Shown in pieces: positions 21,191 to 52,177 of a stretch of 64,000 nt of DNA (positions are counted from its first letter, which is position 1; every line of letters starts with the position of its first letter). The position numbers and the translations under genes are program-made. The stretch comes from Octopus vulgaris (Eukaryota). The DNA lies in NCBI GenBank assembly GCA_951406725.2, contig OX597814.1:209374001-209438000 (forward strand). The letters are read 5' to 3'. Under the pieces are notes generated by a model that saw nothing but the letters and a program-made list of their open reading frames with translations, had not been told where the DNA came from and did no database searches.

Positions 21191-21254
21191 ACGTGTGTAT
21201 CGTTGGCGATTTTCTTCCTCCGTCTTCCCTTCCTTGAACCTTTCCTTTTTCTAT

Positions 21255-21289
21255 ATTTCTGATGAAGATCTCCGCTCGAAACGTTAAAT
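21255..21289 (+). ncRNA. Minimal type-I hammerhead ribozyme motif in a Penelope-like terminal repeat (~21200-21390)
   Basis: ATTT-CTGATGA-A-GATC TCC GCTC-GAAACGTT-AAAT. Both core boxes present, stem I ATTT/AAAT, palindromic stem III AACGTT, one mismatch in stem II. Confidence 0.7.
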
Positions 21290-21531
21290 CCTCTTTCTTT
21301 TTTTCGTTTCCTGAGCATCCAATAACACTATACTTGTTCCACGTTCTCGCGTTGTTGTGTTTTCTCTTTGTTCTTGTTAGATTAACTATATATATATATA
21401 TATACAAATGCATATACATACTTGAGTAATAGCACGAAGCAGTAATATAAAAATAAAGTTTCGGTTAGTTCAAACATGTTTAGGACATATTTCAACTTCT
21501 GAAGACAAATAATTCACTACATAAAACCCCA

Positions 21532-21532
<1 letters not shown>

Positions 21533-21595
<63 letters not shown>

Positions 21596-21625
21596 GCACA
21601 TACAAACACGCACACATATACATAC
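21533..21625. repeat. (CA)n microsatellite
   Basis: Directly visible. Confidence 0.97.
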
Positions 21626-21786
21626 AAAATAAAGCACAGAAATACATAAATTTAGCAGAAAACAATTAGTCTACCTATCTATCTACGTTTCTAGTTCAGA
21701 CGACGGTTTTAGCTGCTCGCGTAATTGCTGCTTCTTATACAAATAGCTTACATCAATTTTATGCGTATGTAGACATACACATTACA

Positions 21787-21835
21787 ACTTCTGATGAACA
21801 CTTACTCCAAAAAAGAAAAAAAAACAGTTGTAAAG
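21787..21835 (+). ncRNA. Degenerate hammerhead motif
   Basis: CTT-CTGATGA...(A-run)-ACAGTTGT-A-AAG. Stem I CTT/AAG and a near-palindromic stem III remain, but stem II and GAAA are eroded into poly-A. Confidence 0.4.
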
Positions 21836-22093
21836 AAGTGCCTCTACTTTCTGTCACATGTGATACCATGGATTTTACTTATCTTTCTATGTTCAATCGA
21901 GACGAAGGACTAATCGAATTCTCCTGTATCTCATCAACAACATAACTGAATGAATTCCTTGGCTTTGTATCTGTCTCTATCGAATCTCTATGAACTTTCA
22001 CCATTCGTTGTTTTTTTTCTAGATTCATGTATTTTTGTACTTTTTTCTTTTTTCTGTGAATATGACATAAACGACCTCGTGTTTTACAACTAC

Positions 22094-22593
22094 CTCTTTT
22101 ACTCTTTTACTGGTTTCAGTCATTTGGAACATGTGGCCATGCTGGAGCACCGCCTTTAGCCGATCAAATCGACCCCAGGACTTATTCTTCGTAAGCCTAG
22201 TACTTATTCTATCGGTCTCTTTTGCCGAACCGCTAAGTTACGGGCACTTAAACACACCAGCATCGGTTGTCAAGCGATGTTAGGGGGACAAACACAAACA
22301 CATAAACATACACACACACACACACACACACGTATATATATACATATATATATACATATATACGACAGGCTTCCAGACACATAAACACACACACGTATAT
22401 ATATATATACATATATATATACATATATACGACAGGCTTCTTTCAGTTTCCGCCTACCAAATCCACTCACAAGGTTTTGGTCGGCCCGAGGCTATAGTAG
22501 AAGACTCTTGCCCAACGTGCCATGCAGCGGGACTGAACCCAGAACCATGTGGTTGGTAACCAAGCTACTTACCCTACAGCCACTCCTAGGCCT
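22094..22593 (-). mobile_element. SINE family A with internal ~68-bp duplication
   Basis: Family A sequence. ACACACACGTATATA...TACGACAGGCTTC occurs twice (~22320-22373 and ~22385-22440). Confidence 0.92.
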
Positions 22594-22893
22594 GTTCATA
22601 TTTTATTCTATAACACCTGTACACTGCTTATAGTCAACTCTTATTCCAACGGATCTCATATCCCTCCCCTTAGTGTAGGCTGAGTGTAGGCAATGGCTCT
22701 TGCCTGGGCACTTATTGTGCGTACCTAATATATTGTCTTTTTCTTACCTATAGCTTATACATACATACATACATACATATATACAGCCATACATACCTAT
22801 ACACAGATAAATACGTACACGCGTATACATATATTATATATATACGTGTGTGTGTGTGTGTGTGGTTGTGTGCGCGCAGTTGTGTATATGTAT

Positions 22894-23113
22894 ACTCTTT
22901 TACTCTTTTACTTGTTTCAGTCATTTGACTGCGGCCATGCTGGAGCACCGCCTTTAATCGAGCAACTCGACCCCGGGACTTATTCTTTTGTAAGCCCAGT
23001 ACTTATTCTATCGGTCTCTTTTGCCGAACCGCTAAGTAACGGGGACATAAACACACCAGCATTGGTTGTCAAGCAATGCTAGGGGGACAAACACAGACAT
23101 ACAAACACACACA

Positions 23114-23183
<70 letters not shown>

Positions 23184-23335
23184 TACGACGGGCTTCTTTT
23201 AGTTTCCATATACCAAATCCAAATAGTGTCTTCTATAGTAGAAGACACTTGCCGAAGGTGCCATGCAGTGGGACTGAATCCGGAACCATGTGGTTGGTAA
23301 ACAAGCTACTTACCACACAGCCACTCCTGCGCCTA
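22894..23335 (-). mobile_element. SINE family A
   Basis: Family A sequence with an internal replacement at ~23221-23232. Confidence 0.92.
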
Positions 23336-26300
23336 TATGCAAACTTTTTAAAAACGTCTAACGGATATTTAAATATTGCAGTCATTTTCATCGACCAATT
23401 ATATTTGGATGGATTAAAATCGGTGGAAAAAACATCCTGTAAGTTTAACTGGATCATCTAAAATAGTCAATCAGAAATGCATAATCAGACCCTACCCTTC
23501 TAAACAATAGACCTTGGGTTTGACAAACAGAAACACGAAACTTCTAAGTAACATGATGTGATGCTTCGGCGTCTCAACAAAACCAGTTAACACACACACA
23601 CACTCACATAAGCAGGCACGCAGGCACGCACACACACACACACACACATGCAGGCACGCACTCACAATCAACAAATTCAATATGGATTTCCATTCTTATA
23701 TATAAATGTTCTCACCAATGCCTTTTGGAAAAAGCACGTTGTAACCCGCTTTTCCCTATCTTGCTTTGAAATAATACTGATCACCCTTTAATGGATATCC
23801 TTTGTCACTATATGTCAACCGGTGGGTCTATTTATTGCACTCACGAGAAGAATGAATAACCGTTTATTCTTACAGTTTCATCGATTCTGTACAGAATGCT
23901 TGTGTATGTATTAAAATCATTTTACTTCGGCTGTGCCACATAGTAGATCGATAATAAGTCTATAGTTTAGAAATCAAAATTCTCGTCTTGTAAAAACACA
24001 AAGAGTAACACTATACATATCAAATACAGAATATAGATGAAAGAGACAATTTCGGGAATTTATTTTGTCGAACCTGTTTATTATGTCTATCTGAAGTTGA
24101 TATTAAAATTATATCAGGTATTGTGTATCTTTTTCATAGAAATACAAACAAACCGAAATTACAAGAGTGTTTTCTATAACAACAAAGTAATTTATTTTTC
24201 CAAAAGGCTTTCTTTTATCTCCGCAACTAGAAATGAATGATAAAAAGAAGAAATATCATTAGATAGGGATTTATGTTTTATAGTTTTACTATAAGTTGGT
24301 GTTTATAGCCAATGATGTCAAAATTATATTCAGTATTTTAGGATCCAAATATCAATATCAGTAAGGTTCTTCATTGCGTCGGCACAGAAATTATATATGT
24401 GTATATGTAATTATGTATGTATACAGGCATTGGTTCTGTGTTTGTGCTTGCGTACTTACATACGTGCGCATATACGTGTACACACACATACACACACAGA
24501 AACACACACACGTATACTGTACGTAGCGGTCACGTTATCAGTGTGTATTTTTAGTAAGTGATCATGTGATTAGAGAAATGCAGAATTACCATCTGGACAT
24601 TCTGGGAACTTGCAAGATGCGTTGCATCGCTCAAATCCATATTAAATCAGATGGATTTTTGGTCCTGTATTCTGGCATGGAGGACCATCATATGTATGGA
24701 ACTGACATTATTTCGCACAACGAGGCTGCTGCAGCATTGGTAGGCTGGAAACCAAAATATGAGTAGATTTTAACACGGTTTCAAACCAGACACAGGAAAG
24801 TTACCGCGGTTCAGGTTACCGACGTAAACTGAAGCTGCAAGAGACGATTAGCAAGAACAATTCTATGACCACCTCCAGGATGTGTTTGACGAAATGCTGA
24901 GTTACAGCTTCAAGCATGTTATTGGCGATTGCAATGCACAATTGGATTCGAATAAGCGGAATAAGTCGTATGTGGTAGGATCCCATGGCAATGCGAATGA
25001 GACCAGCATCAACGGAGAGTGTATGCTGTCACTGTTGGGCACCACAACACTCAATGTGGGGAACACCATCTTTCAACACATACGCACAAAAAAGAAAAAA
25101 TCAACAGCATAACCTGAACGGCCCCGGATGCAAATCCAAAAGACGAGATTATATTTGCATTAGTGGACGATGGTGATCATCGCTGCTATGTTGGATCTGA
25201 TCGCAATTTTATTGTCGGAAAAGTTACATTCAAGTTGAAAAAAAATGAAAGAAGCCAAGAAGCTGTTTGAGGTAGCGAAGCTTAAAGTCTTGTAAACATA
25301 GCGACGCTGTCTCGTCGAAGTCAAAAGCAGATTTGTAGCACTGCGTCGTACTAACGACATTGAGGAGCAGTGGAAGCTGTTTCAGCAGGCTGTAACAGAA
25401 AATTCAAGTGTCACCTTAGGCAGGTCAAGAGATTCCTCGCTGATGATACATCGAAGAGGCCAGGGAACAGAAGAAAGAAGACATGCACCCAACACCAGAG
25501 TTGAAGACACCTCCGAAAGGGGGGGGGGGCGCCATGACAAAACGGTAGAGGAGTAGGGGCCGAAACCGGACGTGGTTCCTCCTGATGATGTCTTGAGCTA
25601 ACTGGATCCTATAAAGGAGCTGTTGTGGTAGCAGACCACCAAACACGGTTGTAATTCCAGAGATGTGGACTTGTATCGATGAAAGGATGCAGACCAAAGC
25701 AAAACGTGAAAGGTCTGCAATGAAGACTATCGGAGAACAGATCGTGATATGAAGAAAATGTGCAGAAGAAGCGATCAGCGGTGGATAGAAAAGAACAGTA
25801 TGGAAGCTCAAGAATCTGCGGACAGAAACGACTCGCAAACTCTTTATAAGATCGTGTGCGAGTTAATAAGTGCGAAGAGTAAACTCCAGTGTGCTGATCA
25901 AAGCTAGGAATGGTAAAATGCTTACCACGGAAGAGGAAGAAGTATTGCACTGGAAAGAACATTTTCAGGAAGCTTTCAATCAATCGATTCCAGCTACTAC
26001 ATTTGAAATGAGTAACAGAAAGTCCATGAATGAACTGAGCATCAACATACTGATATAATAGCAGAAGTGGACAAGACAATACGCAGTTCAGTGAACAGCA
26101 TTCATCAATTGGCATGAATAAGATACCTGCTGAAGAAGACGGGGAAGCAGTTATACAATATCTGAGACATTTGTTCAGCTTTGTTTGACAGCGGGAAGAT
26201 GTATCAGATGATTGGACCCATGGAATAGTTGTTGCACTACTTAAAAATGGTTATCTGGTGGACTGTAACAGCTGGTGTGACGTACCATTGTTATGTGTGC

Positions 26301-26414
26301 CTGGAAAAGTTCTTTGCTGTATCATACTGAATGACCTCAAGGAGATTGATGCTGTATTGAGAGAATCAGGTCTTTTATGGAACAGATCTTCGTGTTGTAA
26401 AACATAATCTAGAA

Positions 26415-26712
26415 CAGGGGTTTCCAGCCTTATTTTGCTTGTGGACCCCATTAGGAGCTATCTTATCATCTGTGGACCCCATATATACACATATAAATTT
26501 TTGAAATAAAATATTTGTTTGTAGATTAGTAAAAACTAACACTGAAACAATTTTGTTATATTCATAACATAAATTCCAAATACAAATCTTGAAAATTTCA
26601 ATAAATACAGGTATCTCTCCTAGTAAACAAAATTTATATATGGACCCACAAATTGCAATATTTTACGCGTGGACCCCGTAAAGCTTCTGTGGATCCCGGT
26701 TGGGAACCCCTG
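26415..26712. mobile_element. hAT (Charlie/Buster-type) MITE
   Basis: TIRs CAGGGGTTTCCAGCC / GGTTGGGAACCCCTG and repeated subterminal (G)TGGACCC motifs. 8-bp TSD ATCTAGAA (26407-26414) / ATCTACAA (26713-26720) fits the NTCTAGAN preference. Confidence 0.9.
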
Positions 26713-27272
26713 ATCTACAAAGTCAGAGAATATAGAGTGCAGCTGCTTATCAAGGTCTTTAACTCTCTGTATAAGAATATGCAGTGCTGCGTGAAGACGA
26801 GCAGCGAAAACACCGATGTGCTCGAAATTGTTATTAGAGTGAGGCAGGTTTGCATCTTGTCGTCATTTCTGCTCCTAGTTGATTTCATTAAGCGGAAAAA
26901 GATGGCAAGCGTAAGTCTTGGAATAACATGGAGACCGAGCAAACTGACGGATTTGGATTTCGCAGATGACTTACTAAGCTCCGACAGAGGTATGCTGCAG
27001 GCCATGACAGATAGCCTATACAGCTTGGGGGCGAAATTAGGTCGGCAGATTAGCGTTGACAAGGCCAAAGTTATGTCAATTGGTGGAATGCAAGCACAAC
27101 TTGTCAATCTCGGACATGTCGTAAACCAGTACGTCCATAACATTACATATCTTCAACTGGGGAGATGCAGAAATTGAAGTCATGATCAGGATGGGTAAAG
27201 CAACGTCAGTATTCCTAACTTTTTTCCAATTAGGAAATTGAAGGCCATCAGTAAGAAGATAGAGTAGCAGCT

Positions 27273-27664
27273 TGTGGAGGCGCAATGGCCCAGTGGTTAG
27301 GGCGGCGGACTCGCGGTCATAGGATCGCGGTTTCAATTCCCAGACCGGGCGTTGTGAGTGTTTATTGAGCGAAAACACCTAAAAGCTCCACGAGGCTCCG
27401 GCAGGGGATGGTGGTGATCCCTGCTGTACTCTTTCACCACAACTTTCTCTCACTCTTACTTCCTGTTTCTGTTGTACCTGTATTTCAAGGGGCCGGCCTT
27501 GTCACTCTCTGTGTCACGCTAAATATCCCCGAGAACTACGTTAAGGGTGCACGTGTCTGTGGAGTGCTCAGCCACTTACACGTTAATTTCACGAGCAGGC
27601 TGTTCCGTTGATTCGGATCAACCGGAACCCTCATCGTCGTAACCGACGGAGTGCTTCCTCTCTC
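27273..27664 (+). mobile_element. SINE family D, full length with 13-bp TSD
   Basis: A box TGGCCCAGTGG and B box GGTTTCAATTCC. TSD TAGAGTAGCAGCT at 27260-27272 and 27665-27677. Confidence 0.92.
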
Positions 27665-28126
27665 TAGAGTAGCAGCTATATTCATCCATTGTTATACCAG
27701 TAGTCATCTACGCCTGCGAAGCCTGGACGGAGACAGCAAATACCACACATTTGCTGGACGTGTTTCATCGACTTGACCTACGTTCTATCCTGGGCATATC
27801 TCACCGGCATAGAGCGAGGGATAAAGAGGTATTGAGAAAAGGTTGCATGGGAAGCAAGCAGGACGTGGTGACTTAACGGCAGATACGGATTTACTAGCCA
27901 TGCGCTTCGCTTTCTGCAAGATAGACATGCTAGCATCGTGATGGAGTAGAAGTCGGAAGGAAGAAAAAGGCCGGGCGGAAGACCAAAGGAAGGCGTGGAG
28001 CAGTACATTCAGGACGACATGAGAGCGAGAGCGTCAGCTCAATTGGGGCTAAAAGAAAAATGAATAATCAGGGTGTTTGTAGATAGATCGTTGCCCGTTC
28101 TGCTGACAGCACTGGAGGATGTAGGA

Positions 28127-28128
<2 letters not shown>

Positions 28129-28195
<67 letters not shown>

Positions 28196-28260
28196 TAGAT
28201 AGATAAATAGATAGATAGATAGATTGAGTGAGATATATATAAATATATATATAATAATAA
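28129..28260. repeat. (GA)n, (GATA)n, (TA)n tracts
   Basis: Directly visible. Confidence 0.95.
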
Positions 28261-28672
28261 ATATTAGGGAATAAATCCAAATTTACAGGGAAAAATCAGA
28301 TTTAGGATTGAATCCAATTTTATAGTAAAATATAATATAATATTAATTAGAGACAAAACCACTATTATGCAAATCAAACAAAGAAAGACTTAATCCAATA
28401 CGTAAAACAGTTCTTGATTATATATAGATTATATATATATTTTTTCATTGTAATTTTATATTATTTATATATTTTAGTCATTTCAAATTTATATCTTAAA
28501 ACATTGATTATTTTTAGGTCTTGAAACCACCTGATGAATGTCCTTAGAAGTGACTGAAAACAATTGTAGTGGATAACTTAATTTTATTTAATTTATATAA
28601 ATTTTTTAATGTATTGGATTAAGTCTTTCTTTGTTTGATTTGCATAATAGTGGTTTTGTCTCTAATTAATAT

Positions 28673-28680
<8 letters not shown>
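28255..28680. mobile_element. Penelope-like terminal-repeat remnant with inverted arms
   Basis: 28339-28401 is the exact reverse complement of 28612-28674 and encloses a hammerhead motif. Its start resembles 58632-58675. Confidence 0.7.
28527..28572 (+). ncRNA. Type-I hammerhead ribozyme motif
   Basis: CCAC-CTGATGA-AT-GTC..GAC-T-GAAA-ACAATTGT-A-GTGG. Stem I CCAC/GTGG, stem II GTC/GAC, palindromic stem III, GUA triplet, one extra A in the GAAA box. Confidence 0.75.
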
Positions 28681-28713
<33 letters not shown>

Positions 28714-28756
28714 AGACGGAGAGTTTTAGCGAATATTTTCATACTTTGCCGTTAGG

Positions 28757-29745
28757 AAGAGGGGTCTTAATTCATGAGAACCATGATCCAGTACACAAGG
28801 CCTTGCTTACAATGGCTACTGTGTATGGCTATGGCTTTGAACTCGTTGATCAGCCTCCCAATTCTCCTTTCATCAGTTTACCTGGGTGTTTAGTCTTGAC
28901 AGCTTTTAGTAACTACCTCAGCAAGTTGGTGGCATAGTACTCTCCATTGATTGTGTAGCCCTTTTGAAGATAAAAACAAAGCTTTTTGCAATCCCCAAAA
29001 TTAAGGACATCGCATTCCCTGCAGATGCAACGACCTTGGCCTTTTTGGAGCAAGTGATGAGGAGTGTTTCCATTATGTGGATTGTTTCTTTGTCTCTGGC
29101 TCAATATGATGAACCTAACACTCATTCTGGTTTAGGAGAGTTTCAAGGAAACCAGCCTACCTCGAACAATGTGAGACTTGTTTCCCGTGATGTGATCAGC
29201 TTAGCGCTTTTTTGATCAGATGACGGAATACAACCGAGCAGAAACTTTTGGCATGCCAAATTCATTGTGCTGAATATTCTCAGTTCTTTCATGGGATATG
29301 CTAATAGCATTGGCTATTTGATTTACAGTCAATCGCCTTCATCCATCATCGTGTTATGAACACAATCAATGTTTTCCTCGGGGATGGAAGTTGTAGGATG
29401 TTCAGACATTGGGTCTCCTTCAAGGCTTTTCATTCTTCTACTTAATTCAGCCTCTCAATTTTGCGTAATTGATAAAGCGGAAGCATCTTCTAATGTAGCA
29501 ACCATGTCAGCATGTATGTCCTAGGAGGATAAACACTTTTTCTGACGGTAATTGACAACACGACGATTTCAAGAGAAATCGCTACGAGTTACTTTTGAAG
29601 TCTTCTTTGAACAGTCAGATTTCAGTTTACCTGGAAAGAAATAATGCAGTTATTCATAAAAAGAGGTGAAATTAATGCACGCAACATTTCAGAGTTGTAG
29701 CATTAATCCATCACGATCAGCCTATGAGCTGGCATATGAGGATTT
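28757..29745 (-). mobile_element. Degenerate mariner transposon
   Basis: DIHADMVATL..., EENIDCVH, RLTVNQIA, KVSARLY, YLQKGYTINGEYYA.NLLR.L.KAVKTKHPGKL. The next segment (GVLIH..PVHK...FELVDQPPNSP) lies inverted at ~28757-28868. Confidence 0.85.
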
Positions 29746-29760
29746 TTGACTCTAAATGGA

Positions 29761-29765
<5 letters not shown>

Positions 29766-29823
<58 letters not shown>
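29766..29823. repeat. (CA)n microsatellite
   Basis: Directly visible. Confidence 0.98.
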
Positions 29824-29824
<1 letters not shown>

Positions 29825-30084
29825 AATTACACATATAACATGTAATCCTAGCTTCAATAAAATACTGTGGTGTGGCGAACTGGATCAACACAACTGATGG
29901 CTCAGATGGAAAGCATTTAGAAATGAAAAACCGACCTTTCTTAACCATTCAATCCCACTTTTAGGGAGTAAATATTAAGCCAGGTTTTACCTATTAATTT
30001 CGTCTTGAGAAAGGGATTGTATATCTAATCCTTGTAGGTCCCTGAGATTGGTAATATCGATGTAGTTAAAAATTCCTCTTCAAC

Positions 30085-30501
30085 AGGCGCAGGAGTGGCT
30101 GTGTGGTAAGTAGCTTGCTTGCCAACCACATGGTTCCGGGTTCTGTCCCACTGCGTGGCACCTTCTGCAAGTGTCTTCTACTATAGCCTCGGGCCGACCA
30201 GAGCCTTGTGAGTGGATTTGGTAGACGGAAACTGAAAGAAGCCCGTCGTATATATGTATATGTATATATATGTGTGCGTGTATGTTTGTGTGCGTGTTTG
30301 TCCCCTTAGCATTGCTTGACAACCGATGCTGGTGTGTTTATGTCCCCGTCACTTAGCGGTTCAGCAAAATAGACCGATAGAATAAGTACTGGGCTTACAA
30401 AGAATAAGTCCCGGGGTCGAGTTGCTCGACTAAAGGCGGTGCTCCAGTATGGCTGCAGTCAAATGACTGAAACAAGTAAAAGAGTAAAAGAATAAAAGAG
30501 T
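30085..30501 (+). mobile_element. SINE family A, full length
   Basis: Head AGGCGCAGGAGTGGCTGTGTGGTAAG...GGGTTCTGTCCC and tail AAGTAAAAGAGTAAAAGAATAAAAGAGT. Confidence 0.93.
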
Positions 30502-31893: not shown

Positions 31894-31933
<40 letters not shown>

Positions 31934-34058: not shown

Positions 34059-34101
<43 letters not shown>

Positions 34102-37341: not shown

Positions 37342-37584
37342 ACTATAGTCTCCCTCATGTTTCATTCAGTGTTTCTGATCTTCCGATACATTTCTCATTT
37401 GCTCTTTATTTCCAATTCAACATACTTATAACTATTTGATGTGTAAATGTTATGAAGTAAAAGTGCTTCCCTGATAAAGTGTTGTGGTTCAACATCCAAT
37501 TGCATTTGGAGTATCCACATCAGAAAACATAAAAAATAAAACACAAGGCAGAAACTACGAAGGAATCAAATGATATAAACCAGC

Positions 37585-38000
37585 ATTCCCCTGCTCCCGC
37601 CCACGCTGCCGCACTTGCCCTTACCTCTCCAACACCGCCCTCCTCACCGGCACCCATCATCGACCCTATCGCATCATCGACTCCTTCACCTGCACCTCCA
37701 GCAACATCATCTATTGCATCTCCTGCTCTCTCTGCCATTCCCTGTACATCGGACAAACGGGACGCCGCTTGGCTGACCGGTTCGCAGAACACCTCCGAGA
37801 CATCCGCCTCGCCAATGACACTCCAGTCGCACGCCATTTCCGCTCCACCGGTCACTCCTTGCAACACCTGTCTGTGTTCGGATTGTCCTTGCACGGAGGC
37901 CATCCGGACTCCCGCTTGCGCAGTGAACAGGGATTAATCTTCTCTCTTCGCTCTTTTACGCCATTTGGGCTCAACTCTCCCCCCCCCCTTTTCATCTAAC
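37585..38000 (+). mobile_element. Penelope-like element GIY-YIG endonuclease fragment
   Basis: Open frame YRIIDSFTCTSSNIIYCISCSLCHSLYIGQTGRRLADRFAEHLRDI....PVARHF..GH...SEQGLIFSLRSFTPFGLN. Confidence 0.92.
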
Positions 38001-40466: not shown

Positions 40467-40875
40467 GGAGGTGGCATCAAGAAGCTCCAGGACTAGTTAT
40501 GTTTAATAAAAAATAACTTATTTACTTAAGTTTTAGCATAATCTCCTTCGAAATAGTCATCTTGCGCAGCTGTAGACCGATCCCAGCGTTCTTGCCACAT
40601 TTGGAATCCGGTCTGGAAGTCGTTTTCCATAAACCTTCTGCGATTCGCTCTGGATCTCGACAACGGTGTGAAAACGGCGACCTTTCGGCTTCATTTTCAT
40701 TTTGGGGAAAGAGATGGAAATCTGCAGGTGCTAAATCTGGCGAATAGGGCGGTTGCAGAAGTGATACCATGTTGCTTTTGGCAAGAAACTCACGAGTGAA
40801 GAGAGCTCGATGACACGATGCATTGTCATCGTGAAAAATCCAGTTCTTCGCGCTCCACAGATCCGGTCTCATTTT
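40467..40875 (-). mobile_element. Mariner transposase 3' fragment with terminal repeat
   Basis: WIFHDDNASCHRA...PPYSPDLAPADFHLFP. The end ..CTTCTTGATGCCACCTCC is followed by TA (40465-40466). Confidence 0.9.
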
Positions 40876-41022
40876 TCTAGCTCTTAACAAAAAATTGGTA
40901 TTTTACATATCATATGAATGCCCTAGTACATACATAGGTCCGGGTTTAGCATTTTTCTAGCCCCCAACAAAAAACTGGTATTTTACATATTGTATGAATG
41001 CTCTATTAGTAAATACATTGGA
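40870..41022. repeat. Two imperfect 80-bp tandem units
   Basis: CATTTTTCTAGC...TGGTATTTTACATAT..ATGAATGC at 40870 and 40950. Confidence 0.85.
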
Positions 41023-41319: not shown

Positions 41320-42260
41320 AGTTTGTTTTTATATATAACAGAACACTGGACAACGTTAAACATATTTGGATTTAGAACAAGGAATATCTACCATCTACGA
41401 AAGAAAGAAGCCCATTTGAAACGAAGCTTTTTTAATGCCGTGGAGAGTAAGACTTCAGAAAACCTACAACTTGCAATACACTTAAAAAAAACTACTTCCT
41501 GCTTTTGAGTAATTCTAATCAAATACACGATAAAAAAGGTAATAAAGTCTTTATAGTGAATTCTTAATAACCGTCTTTTATCCAGTAATATCAGTAGCAA
41601 ATTTAAAACATACTGAGCCATATTGGACGATCATCACAAAACTTAACAGAAAGGAGTTGATGACATAGGGGAAAAATTTAACTGTATTTGCAACATATAT
41701 TATGCTTAAGGACCACAAGCAAAACTTCAGTGGTAACCCTAAATACATGTTAAATCAGTAAAACCGAAATTAAGAATATTTGACAAACAAAAATTAGTGA
41801 CGAATATACTTCGTGTAAATTATCCCTTTAAAATATACAAAAAAATATTAGACTGGTTTCTTAAAGGTATTTGAGATTCGTGAGTTAGTTTATCATTACT
41901 AATTTTTATCATCGATGGTTAAGACTCTTCACAATGCTTTGGCTTTCACAAGTAATATCATACCTATTAGCAAGTCTAGTATTTATTTGGTCATTCACAG
42001 AGGAAAATCGCTCATTTGTTTTTTCTCAAAAAATTCCTCTTAGATTAAGAGAAATACTGAGTTGAATTTTTAATGTACCTCTAGGCATATATGATGGCAA
42101 CCAGTTATGCGATTTTATAGAATTTGTATGTCAGAGCTTCTGCGTAAAAAGTTTCTACGATAAGTCAAGGCATTTATAGAGTCAGTGGACGCTTAATATC
42201 GAGAATTATAACCACACATTAAATCGACTTAGATAGGACTTATTAACTATAATAAAATAC
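41320..42260 (+). mobile_element. Degenerate Penelope-like RT
   Basis: YIMLKDHKQNFSGNPK, ILDWF, FNVPLGIYDGNQLCDFI and GIYR..G are remnants of the ITLKDHK..F..NP / FDVxMGSYDGAEVCELVG / GLYRDDG motifs. Confidence 0.65.
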
Positions 42261-44034
42261 ATGTACATACATGAACAAACACTTTACTATAGATGCTAGA
42301 ATTCCAAGAAAGCTGGACTATATACCCTGCAGTACACAGTTGTTTTAGTTTGCATGATGAAGTGAGATCCTACTAAGGTGGGTTTTACTTGTTCCTTTGG
42401 TGGCGATAAAGTAATTACCGGTCAAAATGTGATGTAATTTATATCAACTATATCTTTTTTCTCATAATATTTAGGTTTGTGCCTTTGTCCGAAATCATAC
42501 TAACAACCTTTATTAAAAGCGCATATATAATATATTTCTATGAACACTAGATTTGTAACTGTATTCAGTATATTTCAATAAAAGTTCCTTTCAACTTTGG
42601 TAGTAATTATCTCTTACTTGCAATCAGATTGTTCTAGTATAATCCCTAATATATTGCGCAAAAGCACTCATTGAATTGGAAAATCTCCGCAGCGCTTCAG
42701 AAATGTTAACAATACTATCTAACGTTGAATCTCTATACCTTGCTACTTCTGCTTTATCATCAATATATTTCGCAGTCAGTGCTTCCAACTCTTGATAACA
42801 GTCATTGCTACAATACTTGCGTAGCTGATGGCATCAAACAAGTCCAGATGCTATCTACGAACACTAGTTGAACCAATTATATAACTATTCCTGCATGCCA
42901 ATATTGAATTATCTTCATTCTGAAACTGTCAAAATCAGCAAGAACGCTATCAAGCTTGATTCTAATATTGATGCCCTGGTATACGTATATGTAGAACTGC
43001 AAACATTTTGCTCAATTAAGTTTTACAAAGTTAACGAGAGATCGGTAGATATAAATAAGCAAAACATCCTTGTTATTAATTCTCATCGAGATTAAAAAGT
43101 AGCTACTTAAAGTGTATTTCGTCATTGGCTTCTATTTAAACAATTGTTTATTGTGTTAGACCCCCAAAAGATTAACTTGAGTTGAATGGTTTTCCAGACC
43201 TATAACGGCACAGCTAATTTGAACTGTTTTGTGCCATTCAGTGAGACAAGATCTCATGATTATTTTTCCGTTAACACTAAGTGTATTGCTGAGTGACATT
43301 TATTTTCGTTTAAACTGCACTTTCAACAATAAATTTCAAATAACAAATATTAGTTTAGTGAAATCTTCATTTTGTTCCGATGGACATTATTTCTAATATA
43401 TTACTCGGTATCTACAAAATCGACTAACGATCAATGACTGAATTATGTCAAATAAATGAGGAAGCTTGCGAAGTTATTTCAACTGCACGACTGTAAAACG
43501 ATTACGCAATATCAACGATTTTTGGATAAAGCAAACACTTCAGAGTAGATTTAATTAACGTTGGATGTTGTTGGCTATACAATATTTGAATTGCATAGTA
43601 CATAGAAAAATATCGATGAATGATAATATTTAAAGTTTCTGTTCAGAGTATACAGGTCGGAACTGCTAAAGTTTATTTCAAATGAAATCTTTTTAAAACC
43701 ACACATTCCTTTAATCGAAATTTGCACACCATGTCTCTTTGCATACATAAATACATCACGTAAATTAATCATAGCAATAGAATAGGAACAAATTGGTACA
43801 TTCCTATCTGTACACCCACAACTCAATTCAAAACACGAATTCTTCTTCCCTTTCGACACCGAACGGTTATTATTTGCTCAATATTATGATTCCGATAAAA
43901 ATTGTTTAACCTTCATTTACATATTCTATTGCATATTAAACTAACAGATTTGCTCGTGTCAGTTATATCCATAATCAATAACAGTTATTCAAATTATTAT
44001 GAAATACACCACATAATAAAATATTGATTTTTAA

Positions 44035-44400
44035 CATTGACACAACCCGTCACATTTTGATGAGTGAGGGAAGCAATCGATTAAAACGATCCCGGCATTT
44101 GGCTGGTTATTATTCTATAGACCCCGGATGGATTAACGACAGAATTGATCTCAACTAGATTTGAACTCCGAATGTAAAGAAGTGTCATACAATATTGATT
44201 TCTAACACTGATTTGCACAAGGCCTTGAATTTGGATGACGGCTGCTGTCAAGTCTATTGATGTCAGTACTTGACTGGTACTTCATTTTATCTAATGCAAA
44301 AAGATAGAAAACAAAGCTGACGAAGCTAGTAATTGAACTCAGTAAGAAAAGATGTAACTGAATATTGCAAGATATTTTGTCTGTCGATTTTTTCCAACCG
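44035..44400 (-). mobile_element. Two very degenerate SINE family B copies
   Basis: GACCCCGGA-GGAT-AA-GACAGAATTGA..GATTTGAACTC and ACTTGACTGGTACTTCATTTTATC..TTGAACTCAG. Confidence 0.55.
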
Positions 44401-44827
44401 CAAAATACAACGTTGAAACAATTTTAGATATTGCCCTTCGATATGTTTCCTTCATATTGGAACATTAAAACTCAAGAACTATAACACTCAAATAATCGTC
44501 CAATGATTTCAGCTGTCTTTGTTAGGCATAAAAACTTAATATTGTTATTATCTTTTCCTTTTCTGCATAAAATATCACCGACACTTTATCAGCTCTTGCG
44601 TCAAACGGTAGAGTGGAGAAATCTAGTGTAATCCCAGTTAACCGATAATATTACATTTGTTCATCTGTCAGCTGTTTATTTGTATTTTGTATCAAAACTA
44701 TCAGCAAAGTGAGCATCATTGAATCAATAATTTAAATCTGATGGCACTTGAAACTAGTATCCGATTTTGTGCCTCTTTAGAAGGAATACAAAATTTTATT
44801 TGTCCATTTTAAAAATTTTGTTGAATG

Positions 44828-45046
44828 AAGGCGGTGAGCTGGCAGAATCGTTAACTCGCTGTACAAATTGCTTAGAAGCATTTTGCACGTCTTTACATCT
44901 TGAGTTCAAATTTTGCTCAGGTAGGACTTTGATTTTCATCCTTTCGGGTACGACGAAATAAGTAGCGGTTGAACACTGTGTTTGATGTACTCTTCTAGTC
45001 TCTTTTCACAAACTTTCAGGCCCTGTGCTTGTAGTAGAAACGATTA
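44828..45046 (+). mobile_element. SINE family B
   Basis: AAGGCGGTGAGCTGGCAGAATCGTTA...GAGTTCAAATT...TTTCATCCTTTCGGG. Confidence 0.8.
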
Positions 45047-45933
45047 TTCAGAGGGATGAAGGGAAATCAGCGCTCGCGATCTTCCTTCTAGGCTCTTTAA
45101 GACTGGTGCAATCGATGTAGTTCGTGTTCAGACTAAATATTAAAAAGTTGCTACCTGTTAAACGATCAAATCTTAGATGAGATTCCATGGATTTGCAATT
45201 ATAGATTGTAAATATTCAGTGAAATATTTCGTAAAGGATTTCAATTATGTGATACACAGTACCAAGAGAAGAGAAGAAACTGGTACATCAAATGCCCTTC
45301 GACAGAAATGGTATGCAACATGTAAAGAAAGTACATGAGTTTTAATGAAAGTGGCAAAGTCACAAATCCATTCATGCAAATACACACACACACACTTGTC
45401 TGTCTGTCTATATTTTATCTCTCTGCCTATATATGTATATCAGTTAATGAATGCCGTAGTGATAGTTTCCTGCTCCAATAGTGCATTAATCGAACGCTCT
45501 TGTGTGGCGTACCGTGCAGATTCAGCAATCGTTCATTGATTGAATGACTGCAGGATCGTGAAGTACCTGAGATATAATTACTGAATTCACTAAATGATAT
45601 CTATCTTTAAATACATAAAAAGTTAAAGACTTCCTTGGGTCATAAATAACCATGGGATTCGCACCTAGAAAGTTCCCCTCGAAGGCACAAATTCGGGCAA
45701 GGTTGTTGATGGAAGATCAGTAGTCACTGAAGCATACCAGCCAGCCCTCTCCATACCACCAATGTTATCCAACTAAGTATAATGATTATACTAAGTTGTA
45801 CTTCACTCACATCCTCATGTTTGTTCTTATTCTTACTCCTATACTTTTTCCATCCTTTTTAAAAAAAAAGACAAACACACTGTACCTATTGCTAACTGTT
45901 TCCTATATGTATTAGCCCTCCCAACCACTTAGA

Positions 45934-46058
45934 CCCTCTGAAGAAGCCTAGAAGCACATTCATCATCCAAACTTTATTTGCCCACCCCTACAGAACACTG
46001 AAGAAATGGAGATGGTATGGAGGATTTCGTTACCTCTTGGTAGAAACGGCCGTAAGGA
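45934..46058 (+). ncRNA. Hammerhead ribozyme motif with ~98-nt stem II region
   Basis: CCT-CTGAAGA(45938-45944)-A-GCC-AGA...TCT-TGGT-A-GAAA(46043)-CGGCCGT-A-AGG. Perfect palindrome ACGGCCGT, GUA triplet, stem I CCT/AGG. Confidence 0.7.
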
Positions 46059-46082
46059 ACTAGCATCTACTGACAATATGAT

Positions 46083-46119
46083 CTTTTGCTCTTTTGCTCT
46101 TTTGCTCTTTTGCTCTTTT
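46083..46119. repeat. (CTTTTGCT) x4 tandem repeat
   Basis: Directly visible. Confidence 0.95.
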
Positions 46120-47514
46120 CTATAATATTAGTACATGTGTAATACATGGTTAATACATGTGTATGTATTCATCTAATACATTCTAATACATTGGAATAAC
46201 TAGACATACTACAATGTCTACCGGCTGATGTATGTCGTTTTTATATCATCTCCATTTTCCTTTTTGCCGTATCTATCTATTTCTGATTATCTCCCTTGAA
46301 AGCACGCTCATGGTTTCCAAGAAAGTTATAGCAGCGGTGCTGTTTCCAAAGTTTTATTTTCGTTTCTCTATTATTAATTTTACTCGCATCTCTATCTTAG
46401 TAGAAACTGATGGATAAAGAAATCAAACTACATAAACAAACGGCAGCAAAACCGTTCAGAAATTAAATAATATTAACAAATTCAGTAACAATAATAAATT
46501 TAATTTATCCTCGACAATTTTTAGTTTTACCAATTTTGAATGTATGGATCCTGTTTAAAACCACTTACCTACTTGGCAATCGCATTTCTAGCTCTGCCTT
46601 GAAGTAAGCTTTACTTCTTAGTCTCACGTTTTTGTGCGCAGCGATATTGTTAATCCTCCGTTAACAGCACCGTATGCAGGTCCTTTCTCTTTTCTTTCAC
46701 GCACGTATAAATGTTTCTCTATAGACCTTAATGATCGTAAAGACATTATATCAGTGGATAGACTAAAAAGGCCTTCATAGAGAAAACTGTCTCTGTTCCC
46801 ACTGCAGACGACACGCACCCAGCATTACAAGCACGGTCCGCACACCCACCTTCACATTTCATGACTACCATTGGGATCAATAAGGTACCGGACAAAGATT
46901 CTGGATTATTTTTCCGGTTTTGTTAATTAATTTTTAAGAGCGATTGGGTTCATTTTTAATATTCTCGTTTGTGACAGCAGTCGAGTTTATTTCAGGTATT
47001 CTCATTTAAAAAATCATCTCCGGCTAATCGTTGAGAGGACGTTCGTGTTGCCTTTTATTATTATTTTTTATTATTTATATTTTTGCCTGTATAAGTTTTC
47101 TTTTCTTTTTTTAGAAAAAGGCACTTACTTTTATTCACCATAAAAGGCGAATACAATAAATCCGAAAGAAGAAGCACATTCTAAGATGTAGAGCAGTATA
47201 TATTAAAATTGGGGAGGGCCGATTTGTGGGATTACCTTGGGTTTCCTGTCTATAAATGGTTTATGGACTTAAAACCTGGGGTGGTCCCGCGGGCTGGCCT
47301 TCCCCATTTTTAATATATGTATATATATATATTGTCTGCGGATAGGATAGTTTCTCTCAAGCCAGCCTTAATAAATAAACTTGTCTTGAAATAAATGCCC
47401 CAGAATGAAAAGTATTGTAGCCATGACTATCCTGTCAAATTTATCCAGTTTTATGTTATTCAAAATGTCTTTCAGTTTGAAGGACTGTAAAGTGTGAATT
47501 GAGAAATGTGACAG

Positions 47515-48147
47515 CAGTCAAGTAGAAACTCCCTCGTTGGTTTGTTCTTAATACTCACTGGCAACTATTTTGCCTATTAATTATTCACTAATTGCTGAAG
47601 AACAAGAAGATATGAATAAAAGAGTAGGAAGATATTTTCTGGCTTGAGCGCATAGTTCTCATTAAGTGTACGACCTGTGACAACAGGATTGTGGGTTGCT
47701 CTTGGAAGTGTGACACATCCATTTGAAACTGCAGGATTTGTTCAGTTCTGATGTCACATCACCTGACACTGCCAGTCTTTCTGAATCAAAAACACCAGCC
47801 GTAGCTGTCATTCCTTGATAAAACATACCGAAAATAATGATTATTGCCGAAATAAGACTAAGTCAATTCATGAAGAAGGAGGCGGGGAAGATGACAGAAA
47901 TTACAATGATGATGCTGAAGAAGTCGAAGAAGACAAACAGTCGATAAATATGAAGAGTCAAATCAAGAATGATGAAGAAACATGTAAAAGATCTAGACAA
48001 AGGCAGCCTATGGCATCTTCACATTCTCAACCATCATTTCAATCTAAGTCCAGTAAGAAAACAAATGATATTGTCAGTATAACGGAACTAGAGAAGTTAT
48101 CAGGCCATTTGGAATTATTCATCCCAGGAAAAGCTGGATGTCAATGA
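47515..48147 (+). pseudogene. Possible decayed coding sequence / processed pseudogene of unknown identity
   Basis: Coding-like frame LIAEEQEDMNKRVGRYFLA*...YDL*QQDCGLLLEV*HIHLKLQDLFSSDVTSPDTASLSESKTP, then a 110-aa acidic ORF and a T-rich 3'UTR-like tract. No recognised domain. Confidence 0.3.
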
Positions 48148-48699
48148 TGTATAAATCATAATTCAAAGTCAGCATTATTTTTGTTTATTTGTTTCTTTAT
48201 TCTTTTTTGTTACTTTTATCTTTTTTTTTTTTAATTTCATCTTTAAGAACTGACGTTAACTTGTTTTATATTCTTCCCTTCTGAAGATGCAGCATTCTAA
48301 ATACTGAACAATTTCATTATATTTGCTTCAGTTTATATTCTTTATTTGTCTATTTATTTATTTACTGTTTGTTATGTGACAAAATTTAATATTCCAACTG
48401 AAGATTTTCATTTGGCAGAAAATAAAAGAAATCTTAAAAGAAAAATGAAAGGCAATAGCCCAGACAGGACAATACAGGACAGACAGAACATGGGGCTCAA
48501 AATAGAGTATGGATAACGAAAGAGTGGAAGTGAGGAAAATGGAGTGATGAGACCCCACAAACCACGCATTATCACTGATCTTTTTTTAGAATCACTGGTA
48601 CTTACGTTCAAGTCACCTCACACACATAACAAGGCATACAATCTTCATTCACAAATCAGGACAGACAAAATGGGTTGGAGCAACTTATTAGACAACATG

Positions 48700-50465
48700 T
48701 AACACTTGATGAAAAAGAATGTCGCATTGTCTTTTGGCCTTCTTTTAGGATCACTGGTATTGTCTTTTGAGTTCGCTGGTGTTCAGCGCGGAGGTGATAA
48801 TTATGGGGTAACATGAATTTCTGTATGTATGTTTAGCTAGGGTGGTTTATTTTCTTCCATTCTTGCGGGCGGTGATATGTCTTGTATAAATCAATTATAT
48901 GTGGCTTTGTTTGGGGAAAATGAGTAGTATGTTTGTGTTTTATATATGTATGGTGTGAATGTGGGGTTTTGGTTGTCTTTGCTTTTGATTGGTTCTTTGT
49001 TTGGGGTAACTGCGTAGGATGTTTGTGGTTTGTGTGTGTATGTTGTGGATGTGGGTTTTTGGTTGTCTTTGGCGGTCTTTTTTATGGGTGTGAGATGAGG
49101 TACTTTTTACTTTCGTCTCTTTTTGACCATTGTCCATCCGTCGTCACTCTCCTCGAACAAGGTTGGCGGAGTCCCACTTGGGGTTCTCCGTTTCCCTCTG
49201 TGGCATCTTTGATATAGGCAGCTTTATCGTGGTGTAGGTAGACTTCTTTTTTTCTTTCGGGTTGACAGTCTGTGGCGAGTTGGTGGGTTGTTCCATTGTG
49301 ATGCTGATTGACTTCCTTCTGTCTTTCTTCGGGTCGTCAGTTTGTGGTTGGTTGATAGGTTGTTTCATCGCGGTGCTGGTTGGCACCCCCATGCTTTCCT
49401 TCGGGTCGTCAGACTGTGGTGGGTTGCTAGGTGTAAGGGGTGTTTCTGGTTGTAGGACCGGTGGGCATGTGGTTTTTATGTGGCCCTTTTGCCCACGCTT
49501 AGATTTCTTACGACGACTCTTTTTTGCTCTGGTATTTCTTCCAAGTCCCTGTGGGTGACCTGGATTATTAGCTCCAGACCTTGGCCCCTCCAGTTCTGCT
49601 GGTGTAGCCTGGTGGTCTGAAGGATAGTGGCTCTAACCTCCAGGTTCAATAGTACCACTGCCTCCAGTCACAACGCCTCGATTTCTGGTAGGACCTCCTC
49701 TATCCTTATTTTCGAGTTCACCTTCCAAGGTAAGTCGGCAGTAACACCAAACGTAGAGTGTTCCTTTGCCTTCGCTTTGGAATCGAATCTCACCTCTACT
49801 GTGCCGAAGCGCCTTCCTCTATTTACGTATTTCATGTCGCGCCAGATGGGTAGTAGGCACTTTTCGATGGCATCCTTAGATGCCAACTCTCTCCTTTTTG
49901 TTGTCAGGGACAGCGTAATGTAAACTATTGTTTTGTGTTTTGTGTTGTATATCACTTCTTCTGGGGGAGTCAACTTCATGTTCGCTCCTTTCCTCTATAA
50001 TAAGATTTTATATTTTTCGAGCTCACCCGGGTCGACTTGGACTGTTTCGCTAGTGACACAGGCCATAGACGCGTAGTTAATTTTTCCATTCCCATTCCGT
50101 GTTTCAATTCGGAGGTCGGTTTCACCATTCTCTGGTATGTTTTTCTCTTGCTTTGTTTGGTAAAATGGGAGGGAGAGTAAGATTTTTCGCACAGATCCTC
50201 CAAAAACTAGTCTGGAATTACATATTTGGAGACGTCAACTTCCATGTTGTACTGATTGAGTAAATCATTTTCCACAAAGGAAAACAATTCGGCTATAAAC
50301 AGGGAAAATTCACACAAAAAATGAACCTGCTAAAACAAGCAATGTGTCCAGAAGATACAGAAAACAGCAAAACTTATATAACAGTTCAAAAAACAACGGT
50401 AATCCCCAAACGGAAAATCTACTATTAAACGAAAGCAGTAGAAAAACACGTCTGTTCAGTAAACG
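48700..50465 (-). mobile_element. Tx1/L1-clade LINE 5' UTR + ORF1, degenerate, ORF2 absent
   Basis: IEKCLLPIWRDMKYVNRGRRFGTVEVRFDS...KIRIEEVLPEI and knuckle remnant KRGQKGHIKTTC, homologous to the ORF1 at 672-2067. ~72-bp coding tandem repeats at 49240-49430. Confidence 0.75.
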
Positions 50466-50545
50466 TATTCCTTATCTTTGTCTGAATATTATTATCCTTA
50501 TTTTTATTAATATTCTTTATTTGATTTTATTTATTTTTATATTTT

Positions 50546-51300
50546 ATATAATCGACTTAATCCCTTTGTCTGTCCTTGTTTGTCACCTCTATGTTTAGCC
50601 CCTTGTGGGCAATAAAGAAATAAGAAACGTTAGCAAGTACCAGTTACGCACTGGGGTCGATGTAATCAACTTAATCCGTTTGTCTGTCCTTGTTCGTCCC
50701 CTCTGTGTTTAGCCCCTTGTGGGTAATAAAGAAATAGGTATTTCGTCTGCCGTTACGTTCTGAGTTCAAATTCCGCCGAGGTCGACTTTGCCTTTCATCC
50801 TTTCGGGGTCAATTAAATAAGTACCAGTTACACACTGGGGTTGATATAATCGACTTAATCCCTTTGTCCTTGTTTGTCCTCTCTGTGTTTAGCCCCTTGT
50901 GGGTAGTAACGAAATAGGTATTTCGTCTGCTGTTAAGTTGTGAGTTCAAATTCCGCCGAGGTCGACTTTGCCTTTTATCCTTTCGGGGTCGATAAATTAA
51001 GTACCATAATTCGTACTGGGGTTGATATAATCGACTTAATCCCTTTGTCTGTCCTTCTTTATCTCTTCTATGTCTATCCCCTTGCGGGCAGTAAAAAGAT
51101 AAGAAACGTTAGCACGCCGGGCGAAATGCTTAGCAGTATTTCGTCTCCTGTTACGTTGTGAGTTCGAATTCCGCCGTGGTCGACTTTGCCTTTCATCCTT
51201 TCGGGGTCGATAAATTAGTACCAGAATTCGTACTGGGGTAGATCTAATCGACTGATCCCCTCCCCAAAACATTTCGGGCCTTAATGCCTAGAATAGAAAA
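50546..51300 (+). mobile_element. Head-to-tail multimer of SINE family B bodies
   Basis: Tail block TAATC-ACTTAATCC-TTTGTC...CCCCTTG-GGG-A-TAA occurs four times (~50546, 50660, 50844, 51026). Body block GTATTTCGTCT...CCTTTCGGGGTC occurs three times (~50737, 50917, 51137). Confidence 0.9.
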
Positions 51301-51723
51301 GATTACTGTTTATGTTTTCTCTACATGTATACATAATCAATGTTCCTAAAGCTTTTTAATCTCTGCTGTTTCCGTACTCCTTCTGAGATTGTTTACTGTA
51401 TTCATATATTCTTCCGTCTTTCTACATAACTGTCTGTGTCTCACCTTCTCTTCTTCACACGTATTATATATTTATTTCTCTATCTCACCCACCACTCTCT
51501 TTCTCTCTCTCTCTCCCTCTCTTTCATTCTCGGTAATGCATTTTCTGCCGTTCAGTGCTTCTACTGATTTTTCTTTCTAAAACTGTCGATAAGTTTGTCA
51601 CGCTATATCACACACAATTGAAGTACATCCAGGCCAAACTCACCACCTACAAATGCAACAATTATTTCTCGATCTGTTTTGTTTGAAAATACTTGAACCA
51701 TGACGAAACCTTTGGTTACTGCA

Positions 51724-51739
51724 ACACACAAACACACAC

Positions 51740-51799
<60 letters not shown>

Positions 51800-51963
51800 G
51801 TATATATGTATATATATATATATATATACACACATATAAGTATGTATATAAATGTGTTTGAGTTTTTATATACCTATGTAAATATATGTGCATATGTATA
51901 CACACACACACATATATATATGTATATATTTAAGTGTGTGTGTGTGTATGTGTGTGTGTGTGT
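51724..51963. repeat. (TA)n/(TG)n/(CA)n mixed tract
   Basis: Directly visible. Confidence 0.95.
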
Positions 51964-52058
51964 TTTAAAACTATTGTATGGTTATCGGCTATTAGATGCT
52001 GCCATAGAGTAGGGAGTCTTCTTTTCTGGATATACAAGTGGGAGTCCGTAAATATCCG

Positions 52059-52177
52059 TACCTGAAGACGTGCAGATAAACAGTAGTTATTGGATCATAC
52101 TAATACAATAATATGCATACCATGTGTAACACTCAGCAATTACTAGCTGAACCTGATGCGCAGAAACAATCGTAGTG
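52059..52177 (+). ncRNA. Hammerhead ribozyme motif with ~94-nt stem II region
   Basis: TAC-CTGAAGA(52062-52068)-CGTGCAG...CTGATGCG-CA-GAAA(52163)-CAATCGT-A-GTG. Stem III ACAATCGT is one change from a palindrome. GUA triplet; AATAAA ~10 nt downstream. Confidence 0.6.

What the first reader, a model, noticed from the sequence alone, without database searches (positions are those of the whole stretch)
21255..52177. Four or five unrelated minimal hammerhead ribozymes in 31 kb, each with a different palindromic stem III
Seen: CTGAnGA and GAAA boxes with pairing stem I arms at 21255, 28527, 45934 and 52059, plus an eroded one at 21787. Stem III is AACGTT, ACAATTGT, ACGGCCGT, ACAATCGT and ACAGTTGT, i.e. 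perfect or one-off palindromes. The triplet is GUA in four cases and GUU at 21255. The flanks are not homologous to each other, and all motifs are on the + strand. Known: minimal type-I hammerheads with palindromic stem III occur in Penelope-like element repeats and retrozymes and are thought to cleave as dimers. Inference: several independent non-autonomous ribozyme-bearing retroelement families exist here, and the palindrome could act as a family-specific dimerisation code. Penelope RT (41320) and GIY-YIG (37585) relics nearby are candidate mobilisers.
Basis: partly seen in the sequence, partly recalled or inferred. Interest (0 to 1): 0.8.

Follow-up and report, generated by a model that had tools for sequence, protein, structure and literature searches.

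The report
Decayed hammerhead ribozymes of Penelope retroelements
The motifs are worn copies of a known self-cutting RNA fold, likely left behind by several Penelope-like jumping genes; their palindromes are shared between families rather than being family barcodes, three carry an unusually long side arm, and cutting is untested.

Summary
Four of the five motifs hold up as decayed type-I hammerheads; 21787 is at best a wreck. I found a sixth at 59812. The set exceeds chance (5 loci against 0.49 in shuffles). 21255 matches the hammerheads behind Neptune-type endonuclease genes (E 3e-4). 28527 sits in an inverted-arm insertion in (TA)n, a Penelope hallmark. 52059 belongs to an old dispersed family in two species. 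The 'dimerisation code' is not supported: most copies of the 52059 family read ACAATTGT, the same as 28527; 21787 pairs as well with 28527 as 28527 does with itself; 34 of 36 hammerheads in Neptune-type relatives share ACGT. Several families per genome and 8-10 nt palindromes are published. The GIY-YIG relic is real; the RT relic at 41320 was not confirmed. What remains unusual: 45935, 52059 and 59812 carry 86-98 nt inserts in stem II, which I did not find in the papers read. The scan noted long-stem-II hammerheads elsewhere in this genome before. Cleavage is untested.

The parts
21255..21289 (+). Minimal type-I hammerhead, Neptune-type layout: stem I ATTT/AAAT, CTGATGA, extra A, stem II 3 of 4 pairs, GAA, ACGT, U17
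   Evidence: best hit of model R1 built from Neptune-type relatives, 22.3 bits, E 3.2e-4
21192..21387 (+). Approximate host fragment, between a (CA)n run and a (TA)n run
   Evidence: Sequence; boundaries inferred, no copies obtained
21787..21836 (+). Possible eroded hammerhead: 3-bp stem I, CTGATGA, no stem II, G plus A-run, ACAGTTGT, A17
   Evidence: passes only the descriptor that allows 6 extra As
28227..28401 (-). Inverted 3' copy of the element with a tail that the forward copy lacks; ends in TA-rich sequence
   Evidence: 28338-28401 is a 64/64 inverted match to 28611-28674; 111 further nt to my chosen boundary
28402..28674 (+). Forward pLTR-like copy ending at (TA)17
28527..28572 (+). 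Decayed type-I hammerhead: stem I CCAC/GTGG, stem II GTC/GAC, one extra A, ACAATTGT, A17
   Evidence: 1 observed against 0.037 expected with one extra A allowed
37574..37996 (+). GIY-YIG endonuclease relic with Cys-rich linker, Neptune-like; no RT and no tail attached
   Evidence: Pfam GIY-YIG E 0.0012, below cut-off; 11 of 13 hits at E below 1e-20, several joined to RT or thumb regions
45935..46057 (+). Long-stem-II hammerhead: 3-bp stem I, CTGAAGA, 98-nt insert closed by GCC/GGT, ACGGCCGT, A17
   Evidence: closing helix in the free fold, seen in 3.2% of shuffles; no copies obtained
52059..52179 (+). Long-stem-II hammerhead: 94-nt insert closed by a 5-bp stem, ACAATCGT (family majority ACAATTGT), A17
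52056..52217 (+). Extent of the dispersed repeat family seen at 80% identity or more
   Evidence: Depth bins and contig pieces in runs X1, X16, X24
59812..59922 (+).
   Evidence: an 8-bp closing helix in 1 of 500 shuffles, and stem II was not part of the descriptor that found it

Best explanation
These motifs are solo, mutated type-I hammerhead folds that were likely left by at least four unrelated families of Penelope-like elements or their non-coding derivatives, and they are predicted to be inactive where they now sit. In the active parent, a transcript through a tandem terminal repeat would carry two copies of the motif; the palindromic stem III strands of the two copies would pair into a double hammerhead and cut after GUH (inferred from Cervera and De la Pena 2014). 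The element's RT and GIY-YIG protein would then insert 5'-truncated, sometimes inverted, copies at TA-rich targets. The palindrome follows from the need to pair with an identical copy on the same RNA, so it need not tell families apart. Three families add an 86-98 nt, probably branched, extension to stem II.
For: Enrichment over shuffles. 36 of 80 loci with relatives of the window's GIY-YIG carry a hammerhead within 700 nt downstream, 0 of 80 on the opposite strand; stems I and II covary (85.7% paired against 67.7% shuffled); a model from 21 of them ranks 21252-21292 first in the window. Inverted arm, tail and (TA)n target at 28227-28674 match the arrangement in Craig et al. 2021 (passages). 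The 52059 family is dispersed in two species, and copy letters repair the fold: 52160 G>A turns U-G into U-A, 52171 C>T completes the palindrome; with 13 copy letters applied, stem II pairing probability rises from about 0.3 to 0.87-1.0. The three long inserts close on themselves in the free fold; the chance-like hit 14790 does not.
Against: No cleavage or RNA-end evidence. No Rfam hammerhead match. Copies were obtained for one motif of six. A Penelope link for 45935, 52059 and 59812 rests on fold type and context only; no coding sequence was tied to them. In the 52059 family the 3' core is not demonstrably more conserved than the insert (1 of 12 against 16 of 62 listed positions vary), the 5' box is covered by few contigs, and 52158 G>A breaks a stem II pair in 1 contig per run. 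Two of the 13 applied letters (52089, 52113) and 52160 are minorities in X1. For 45935 and 52059 the descriptor already asked for 2 bp of stem II, so one search is independent only for 59812. R1's second hit (39277, E 0.007) lacks GAAA, so its E-values are rough. In an Anolis element the hammerhead cut only with protein and was not needed for insertion in vitro (PMC11167929, passages).
Confidence: 0.75

Rival explanations
1. The stem III palindrome is a family-specific code that lets each family dimerise and cut only with itself.
For: ACGGCCGU and ACGAUCGU self-pair far better (-14.1, -10.0 kcal/mol) than they cross-pair (-4.4 at best). Three or four sequence classes exist in the window.
Against: Unrelated 28527 and 52059 families share ACAATTGT. 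21787 cross-pairs fully with 28527. ACGT is shared by 34 of 36 Neptune-type hammerheads and by 29 of 56 rows, counted by eye, of Cervera and De la Pena Fig. S3. Any two different palindromes cross-pair poorly, so this is a by-product and not evidence of selection.
Confidence: 0.12
2. The long-insert motifs are solo monomers of non-coding retrozymes that replicate through circular RNA and borrow Penelope enzymes. This is compatible with the best explanation.
For: An 8-nt palindrome is the canonical metazoan helix III (1-2 bp plus palindromic loop; PMC4209133). Li et al. 2026 (bioRxiv, parts 1-2 of 5) report many solo monomers. Earlier scan notes describe long-stem-II tandem repeats in this genome (unchecked).
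Against: No tandem unit around any motif. The 52059 family signal spans only about 160 nt. Look-ups of these stretches in the scan's notes found no look-alikes.
Confidence: 0.3
3. The long inserts are spliceosomal introns or later insertions, so the working ribozyme is short.
For: Penelope elements keep introns in their terminal repeats. The 52059 insert has CTRAY and YAG words.
Against: No GT..AG pair removes a plausible intron and leaves stem II intact. The insert is shared by the family's copies and folds better with copy letters (z -3.1 against -1.6). No joint within the insert in any of 4 runs (contigs drop rare forms). Three unrelated elements have similar insert lengths.
Confidence: 0.08
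4. Some or all motifs are chance combinations of short words in AT-rich repeat DNA.
For: 34 CTGAnGA boxes against 27.7 expected. 14790 and 38529 pass the strict descriptor and look accidental. 21787 needs six extra As. Stems I are only 3-4 bp.
Against: Full descriptors exceed all 300 shuffles. Independent support exists for 21255, 28527, 52059 and 59812. Chance remains likely for 21787 (about even) and possible for 45935.
Confidence: 0.07

Closest known systems
Minimal hammerheads of metazoan Penelope-like elements (Cervera and De la Pena 2014, PMC4209133; read parts 1-2 of 4 of the main text and parts 1-2 of 3 of supplementary file 2; file 1 not searched)
   Same: Type-I order, short helix I, extra base between A9 and 10.1, palindromic helix III, many families per genome, mostly solo copies. 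Palindromes up to 10 nt occur (Aedes, Saccoglossus).
   Different: Loop II in the 56 listed motifs is under about 10 nt; three motifs here have 86-98 nt between the boxes, and two have an extra A before GAAA.
Neptune-clade elements; hammerheads of Hydra and PLE-X elements (Craig et al. 2021, PMC8557442; passages, supplement parts 1-2 of 59 and two word searches; the archive is cut)
   Same: Inverted 5' copy with tail, (TA)n targets, Cys-rich linker before GIY-YIG; File S2 lists 9-10 nt palindromic stems III, an Octopus Hydra element, and a C...A flank around stem II (PLE-X1_cBra).
   Different: Longest loop II in File S2 is about 35 nt. No sequence of this window was matched to those consensi.
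Animal non-LTR retrozymes (Cervera and De la Pena 2020, PMC7229834, passages; Li, Clavereau and Pollet 2026, bioRxiv 10.64898/2026.07.22.740005, parts 1-2 of 5)
   Same: Non-coding repeats with type-I hammerheads, 2-bp helix III with tetraloop, proposed Penelope origin.
   Different: Retrozymes are tandem units with loop I-loop II contacts; here all copies are solo and no tandem unit was found.
Dimer-cleaving hammerhead variants of Penelope-like elements (Lunse, Weinberg and Breaker 2017; paper not held, seen only as title and as summarised in PMC6765202 and PMC6466107, passages)
   Same: Palindromic stem III and cleavage as dimers.
   Different: I could not check whether it reports long stem II forms or heterodimer tests.

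Membership tests
Type-I hammerhead ribozyme | Core CUGANGA ... GAAA, A15.1-U16.1, NUH triplet | tested here: met
   Exact at 21255, 45935, 52059, 59812; one extra A at 28527; six extra As at 21787
Type-I hammerhead ribozyme | Stems I and II can form | tested here: inconclusive
   Stem I 3-4 bp in all six; stem II present in five, absent at 21787; copy-level repair shown only for 52059
Type-I hammerhead ribozyme | Self-cleavage after H17 | not testable with these tools
   Only contigs were laid; they cannot show RNA ends
Minimal hammerhead (Cervera and De la Pena 2014) | Helix III reduced to positions 15.1-16.1 and 15.2-16.2, no loop | tested here: met
   Met for 21255 only (ACGT); the other five have 8-nt palindromes and so are not minimal
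Penelope-like element | Inverted truncated copy, tail and microsatellite target | tested here: met
   Met at 28227-28674; microsatellite flanks only at 21255 and 59812; not seen at 45935, 52059, 21787
Penelope-like element | RT plus GIY-YIG reading frame upstream of the hammerhead | tested here: not met
   No PLE coding match next to any motif; expected for truncated ends, and only Neptune-type queries were available
Neptune clade (relic at 37574) | Cys-rich linker before GIY-YIG, and CCHH residues | tested here: met
   C7, C12, C15, C51, C54, H73, H88 conserved in alignment A1; clade name from Craig et al. passages, no tree built
Penelope RT (relic at 41320) | Detectable similarity to PLE reverse transcriptase | tested here: inconclusive
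   No hit by tblastn, profile, Pfam read-through or phmmer; frame-broken YLDL, TIYERKK and VNYP words resemble recalled RT-thumb motifs
Non-LTR retrozyme | Head-to-tail tandem units each with a hammerhead | tested here: not met
   None in the window; genome not held
Non-LTR retrozyme | Circular RNA | not testable with these tools
   No raw RNA reads listed

The most novel reading that the evidence does not exclude
Several unrelated retroelement families in this genome have converged on a hammerhead with a 90-nt branched domain grafted onto stem II plus an 8-nt palindromic stem III. The strong GC-rich palindromes (ACGGCCGU, ACGAUCGU) insulate these families from the common ACGU class and from each other, giving real partner selectivity in dimer cleavage, and the grafted domain is the handle for the element's protein. 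Standard descriptors and Rfam miss this class.
Probability: 0.12. Interest if true: 0.65.

Novelty: new variant of a known kind. Interest (0 to 1): 0.33.

Why it matters
Mostly it does not: one hammerhead relic per 10 kb from several families is what published surveys of metazoan Penelope-like elements lead one to expect. The useful result is negative: the palindrome is not a family barcode. The part worth keeping is the long-stem-II form, seen three times in unrelated sequence. If it cuts, hammerhead counts in animal genomes are underestimates, and the insert is a candidate binding site for the retroelement protein, which in one tested element is needed for cleavage (PMC11167929).

Tried and rejected
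Rfam scan: no hammerhead family matched; hits were microsatellite artefacts. No genome held. Exact pattern scan for the 21255 motif in metagenome contigs: 0 matches. Protein search with a translation across 21192-21386: no candidate. No RNA holder listed for 42300-50600; not evidence either way. RNA-labelled contigs at about 85% identity cover part of the 52059 family, but RNA status is a guess and they are other copies. RT relic at 41320: nothing by five methods; the one phmmer hit P0015 is a repetitive artefact. Descriptor hit 14790 rejected: its first half is duplicated at 3082 without the second half and its insert does not close. Hit 38529(-) rejected as weak (6-nt palindrome with a mismatch, 2-bp stem II). 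The second CTGAAGA at 45998 has no stem I partner. No long-insert hammerhead in the 80 Neptune-type loci, 225 kb. A recalled Penelope N-terminal motif downstream of 59812 got no support. Scan-note look-ups by sequence and by place found nothing. Literature searches for a long stem II or heterodimer selectivity in Penelope hammerheads listed no such paper; Lunse 2017 was not held, and bioRxiv supplements and cut parts of the Craig archive were not seen. Permuted strand orders were not examined.
Full report
Setting. The window is 36% G+C, rich in AAT, TA and CA microsatellites and retroelement debris. It looks cephalopod: the repeats resemble octopus repeats I recall, and a UniRef Octopus protein is the closest match to the GIY-YIG relic at 72% over half the query. 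No whole genome is held.

Observation. They are not five of a kind. 21255 is a true minimal hammerhead with ACGT. 28527 has an extra A and a slipped stem II. 21787 has six extra As and no stem II. 45935 and 52059 have 98 and 94 nt between the boxes. A looser, after-the-fact descriptor finds 6 against 0.19 and adds a motif at 59812 with a perfect ACGATCGT. Rfam finds no hammerhead.

21255. The relic at 37574-37996 is a GIY-YIG endonuclease with the Cys-rich linker of Neptune-type elements. With its alignment I fetched the best 80 of 164 related metagenome loci. In 36 of the 80 (73 have tails of 150 nt or more) a hammerhead lies downstream of the endonuclease, all but one within 230 nt, and none on the other strand. 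34 of the 36 have ACGT. A set of 39 such motifs falls into 12 families by flank identity (that set was picked by an A[CT]GT pattern). In 21 chosen motifs stems I and II covary while stem III stays fixed. A model built from them ranks 21252-21292 first in the window, E 3.2e-4, and finds none of the other motifs as full matches. So 21255 is likely the tail of a Neptune-type element. Whether it is the same family as the relic 16 kb away is not shown.

28527. The motif lies in a forward copy, 28402-28674, whose last 64 nt recur exactly, inverted, at 28338-28401; the inverted arm runs on into a tail that the forward copy lacks, and both ends meet TA-rich sequence. Craig et al. 2021 describe this arrangement as typical of Penelope-like insertions (passages).

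52059. Contigs of four runs were laid on 51966-52480 at 80% likeness. Depth rises over 52056-52217 in two species, with about 9 to 13 diverged contigs at the 3' core, so this is an old dispersed family. One X1 contig spans the whole stretch without differences and may be the source DNA. Copy letters repair the fold: 52171 C>T completes ACAATTGT and 52160 G>A makes a U-A pair in stem II. Applying 13 listed letters lifts stem II pairing probability from about 0.3 to 0.87-1.0. Limits: the 5' box is thinly covered, three applied letters are minorities in X1, and core conservation over insert conservation is not significant (1 of 12 against 16 of 62 positions).

Long inserts. In 45935, 52059 and 59812 the insert's ends pair in the unconstrained fold (3, 5 and 8 bp), which shuffles do in 3.2, 1.8 and 0.2% of cases; the chance-like hit 14790 does not. 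Only 59812 is a fully independent test. The 52059 and 59812 inserts fold into internal hairpins; 45935 folds as one long imperfect stem. An intron reading is not supported. No copies were obtained for 45935 or 59812, and no coding sequence is tied to any of the three.

The code idea. It fails on three counts. Two unrelated families share ACAATTGT. 21787 pairs 8 of 8 with 28527 at the same energy as the homoduplex. ACGT is the shared default in Neptune-type relatives and in 29 of 56 published motifs by my count. ACGGCCGU and ACGAUCGU do prefer themselves, but any two different palindromes would. Pairing with an identical copy on the same tandem transcript explains a palindrome without any code (inference).

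Mechanism. Shown: the folds, the enrichment, the inverted-arm insertion, the dispersed family, the shared palindromes. From the literature: dimer cleavage of such motifs, weak in vitro (PMC4209133), and protein-dependent cleavage in an Anolis element (PMC11167929). Inferred: that the parents cut as double hammerheads on tandem transcripts, were inserted by Penelope RT and GIY-YIG proteins at TA-rich targets, and that these solo, mutated copies are dead. The local GIY-YIG piece has no RT or tail and cannot be a mobiliser itself. The RT relic at 41320 was not confirmed.

Novelty. Several families per genome, solo copies and 8-10 nt palindromes are published. An 86-98 nt stem II insert was not in what I read, where the longest loop II is about 35 nt, but Lunse 2017 and some supplements were out of reach. 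Earlier scan notes describe long-stem-II hammerheads in tandem repeats elsewhere in this genome; I did not check them, and they made me look harder at the inserts. Verdict: real but largely known, with one variant worth a bench test. Interest 0.33.

Unexplained. All six motifs and the GIY-YIG relic are on the + strand. For six motifs that is about P 0.03, two-sided and after the fact. Purging of sense-strand ribozymes from a host intron on the - strand would explain it, but no host gene was identified.

Noticed in passing
window 59812-59922 (+): Sixth hammerhead-like motif with 86-nt insert, 8-bp stem II base and perfect ACGATCGT palindrome; stem I may extend past a bulge (TTTATTC with GGAGTAAA).
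   Followed up: partly
window 59920-60155 (+): Frame-broken words (AKFLQ, KLP, IRNR) resemble a recalled Penelope N-terminal motif; no tool support.
   Followed up: partly
window 58622-58880: Second, older piece related to the tail of the 28227 element (83% over 64 nt), also between (TA)n runs; no hammerhead box in it.
   Followed up: partly
window 21255-59922: All six hammerhead-like motifs and the GIY-YIG relic lie on the + strand.
   Followed up: no
window 12211-14291 (+): Long non-LTR retrotransposon relic with RT and zf-RVT matches; related C-terminal pieces at 3685-4356 and 6849-7301.
   Followed up: no
window 50635-51290: Head-to-tail run of a 180-nt SINE-like unit, 2.3 copies by TRF and further partial copies.
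   Followed up: no
window 40522-40902 (-): DDE transposase fragment, mariner-like (Pfam DDE_3 E 0.0008).
   Followed up: no
L025, - strand, position 1937 of the reversed locus: Short hammerhead with a 6-nt ATATAT palindrome in a Neptune-type locus.
   Followed up: no
PMC8557442 supplement, record before Chlamys-1_pPol: A hammerhead-like motif whose stem II loop seems to hold a GT..AG stretch, suggesting an intron inside a ribozyme; it prompted the intron test here.
   Followed up: no
window 45770-45798: 29-nt near-perfect palindrome about 140 nt upstream of the 45935 motif.
   Followed up: no
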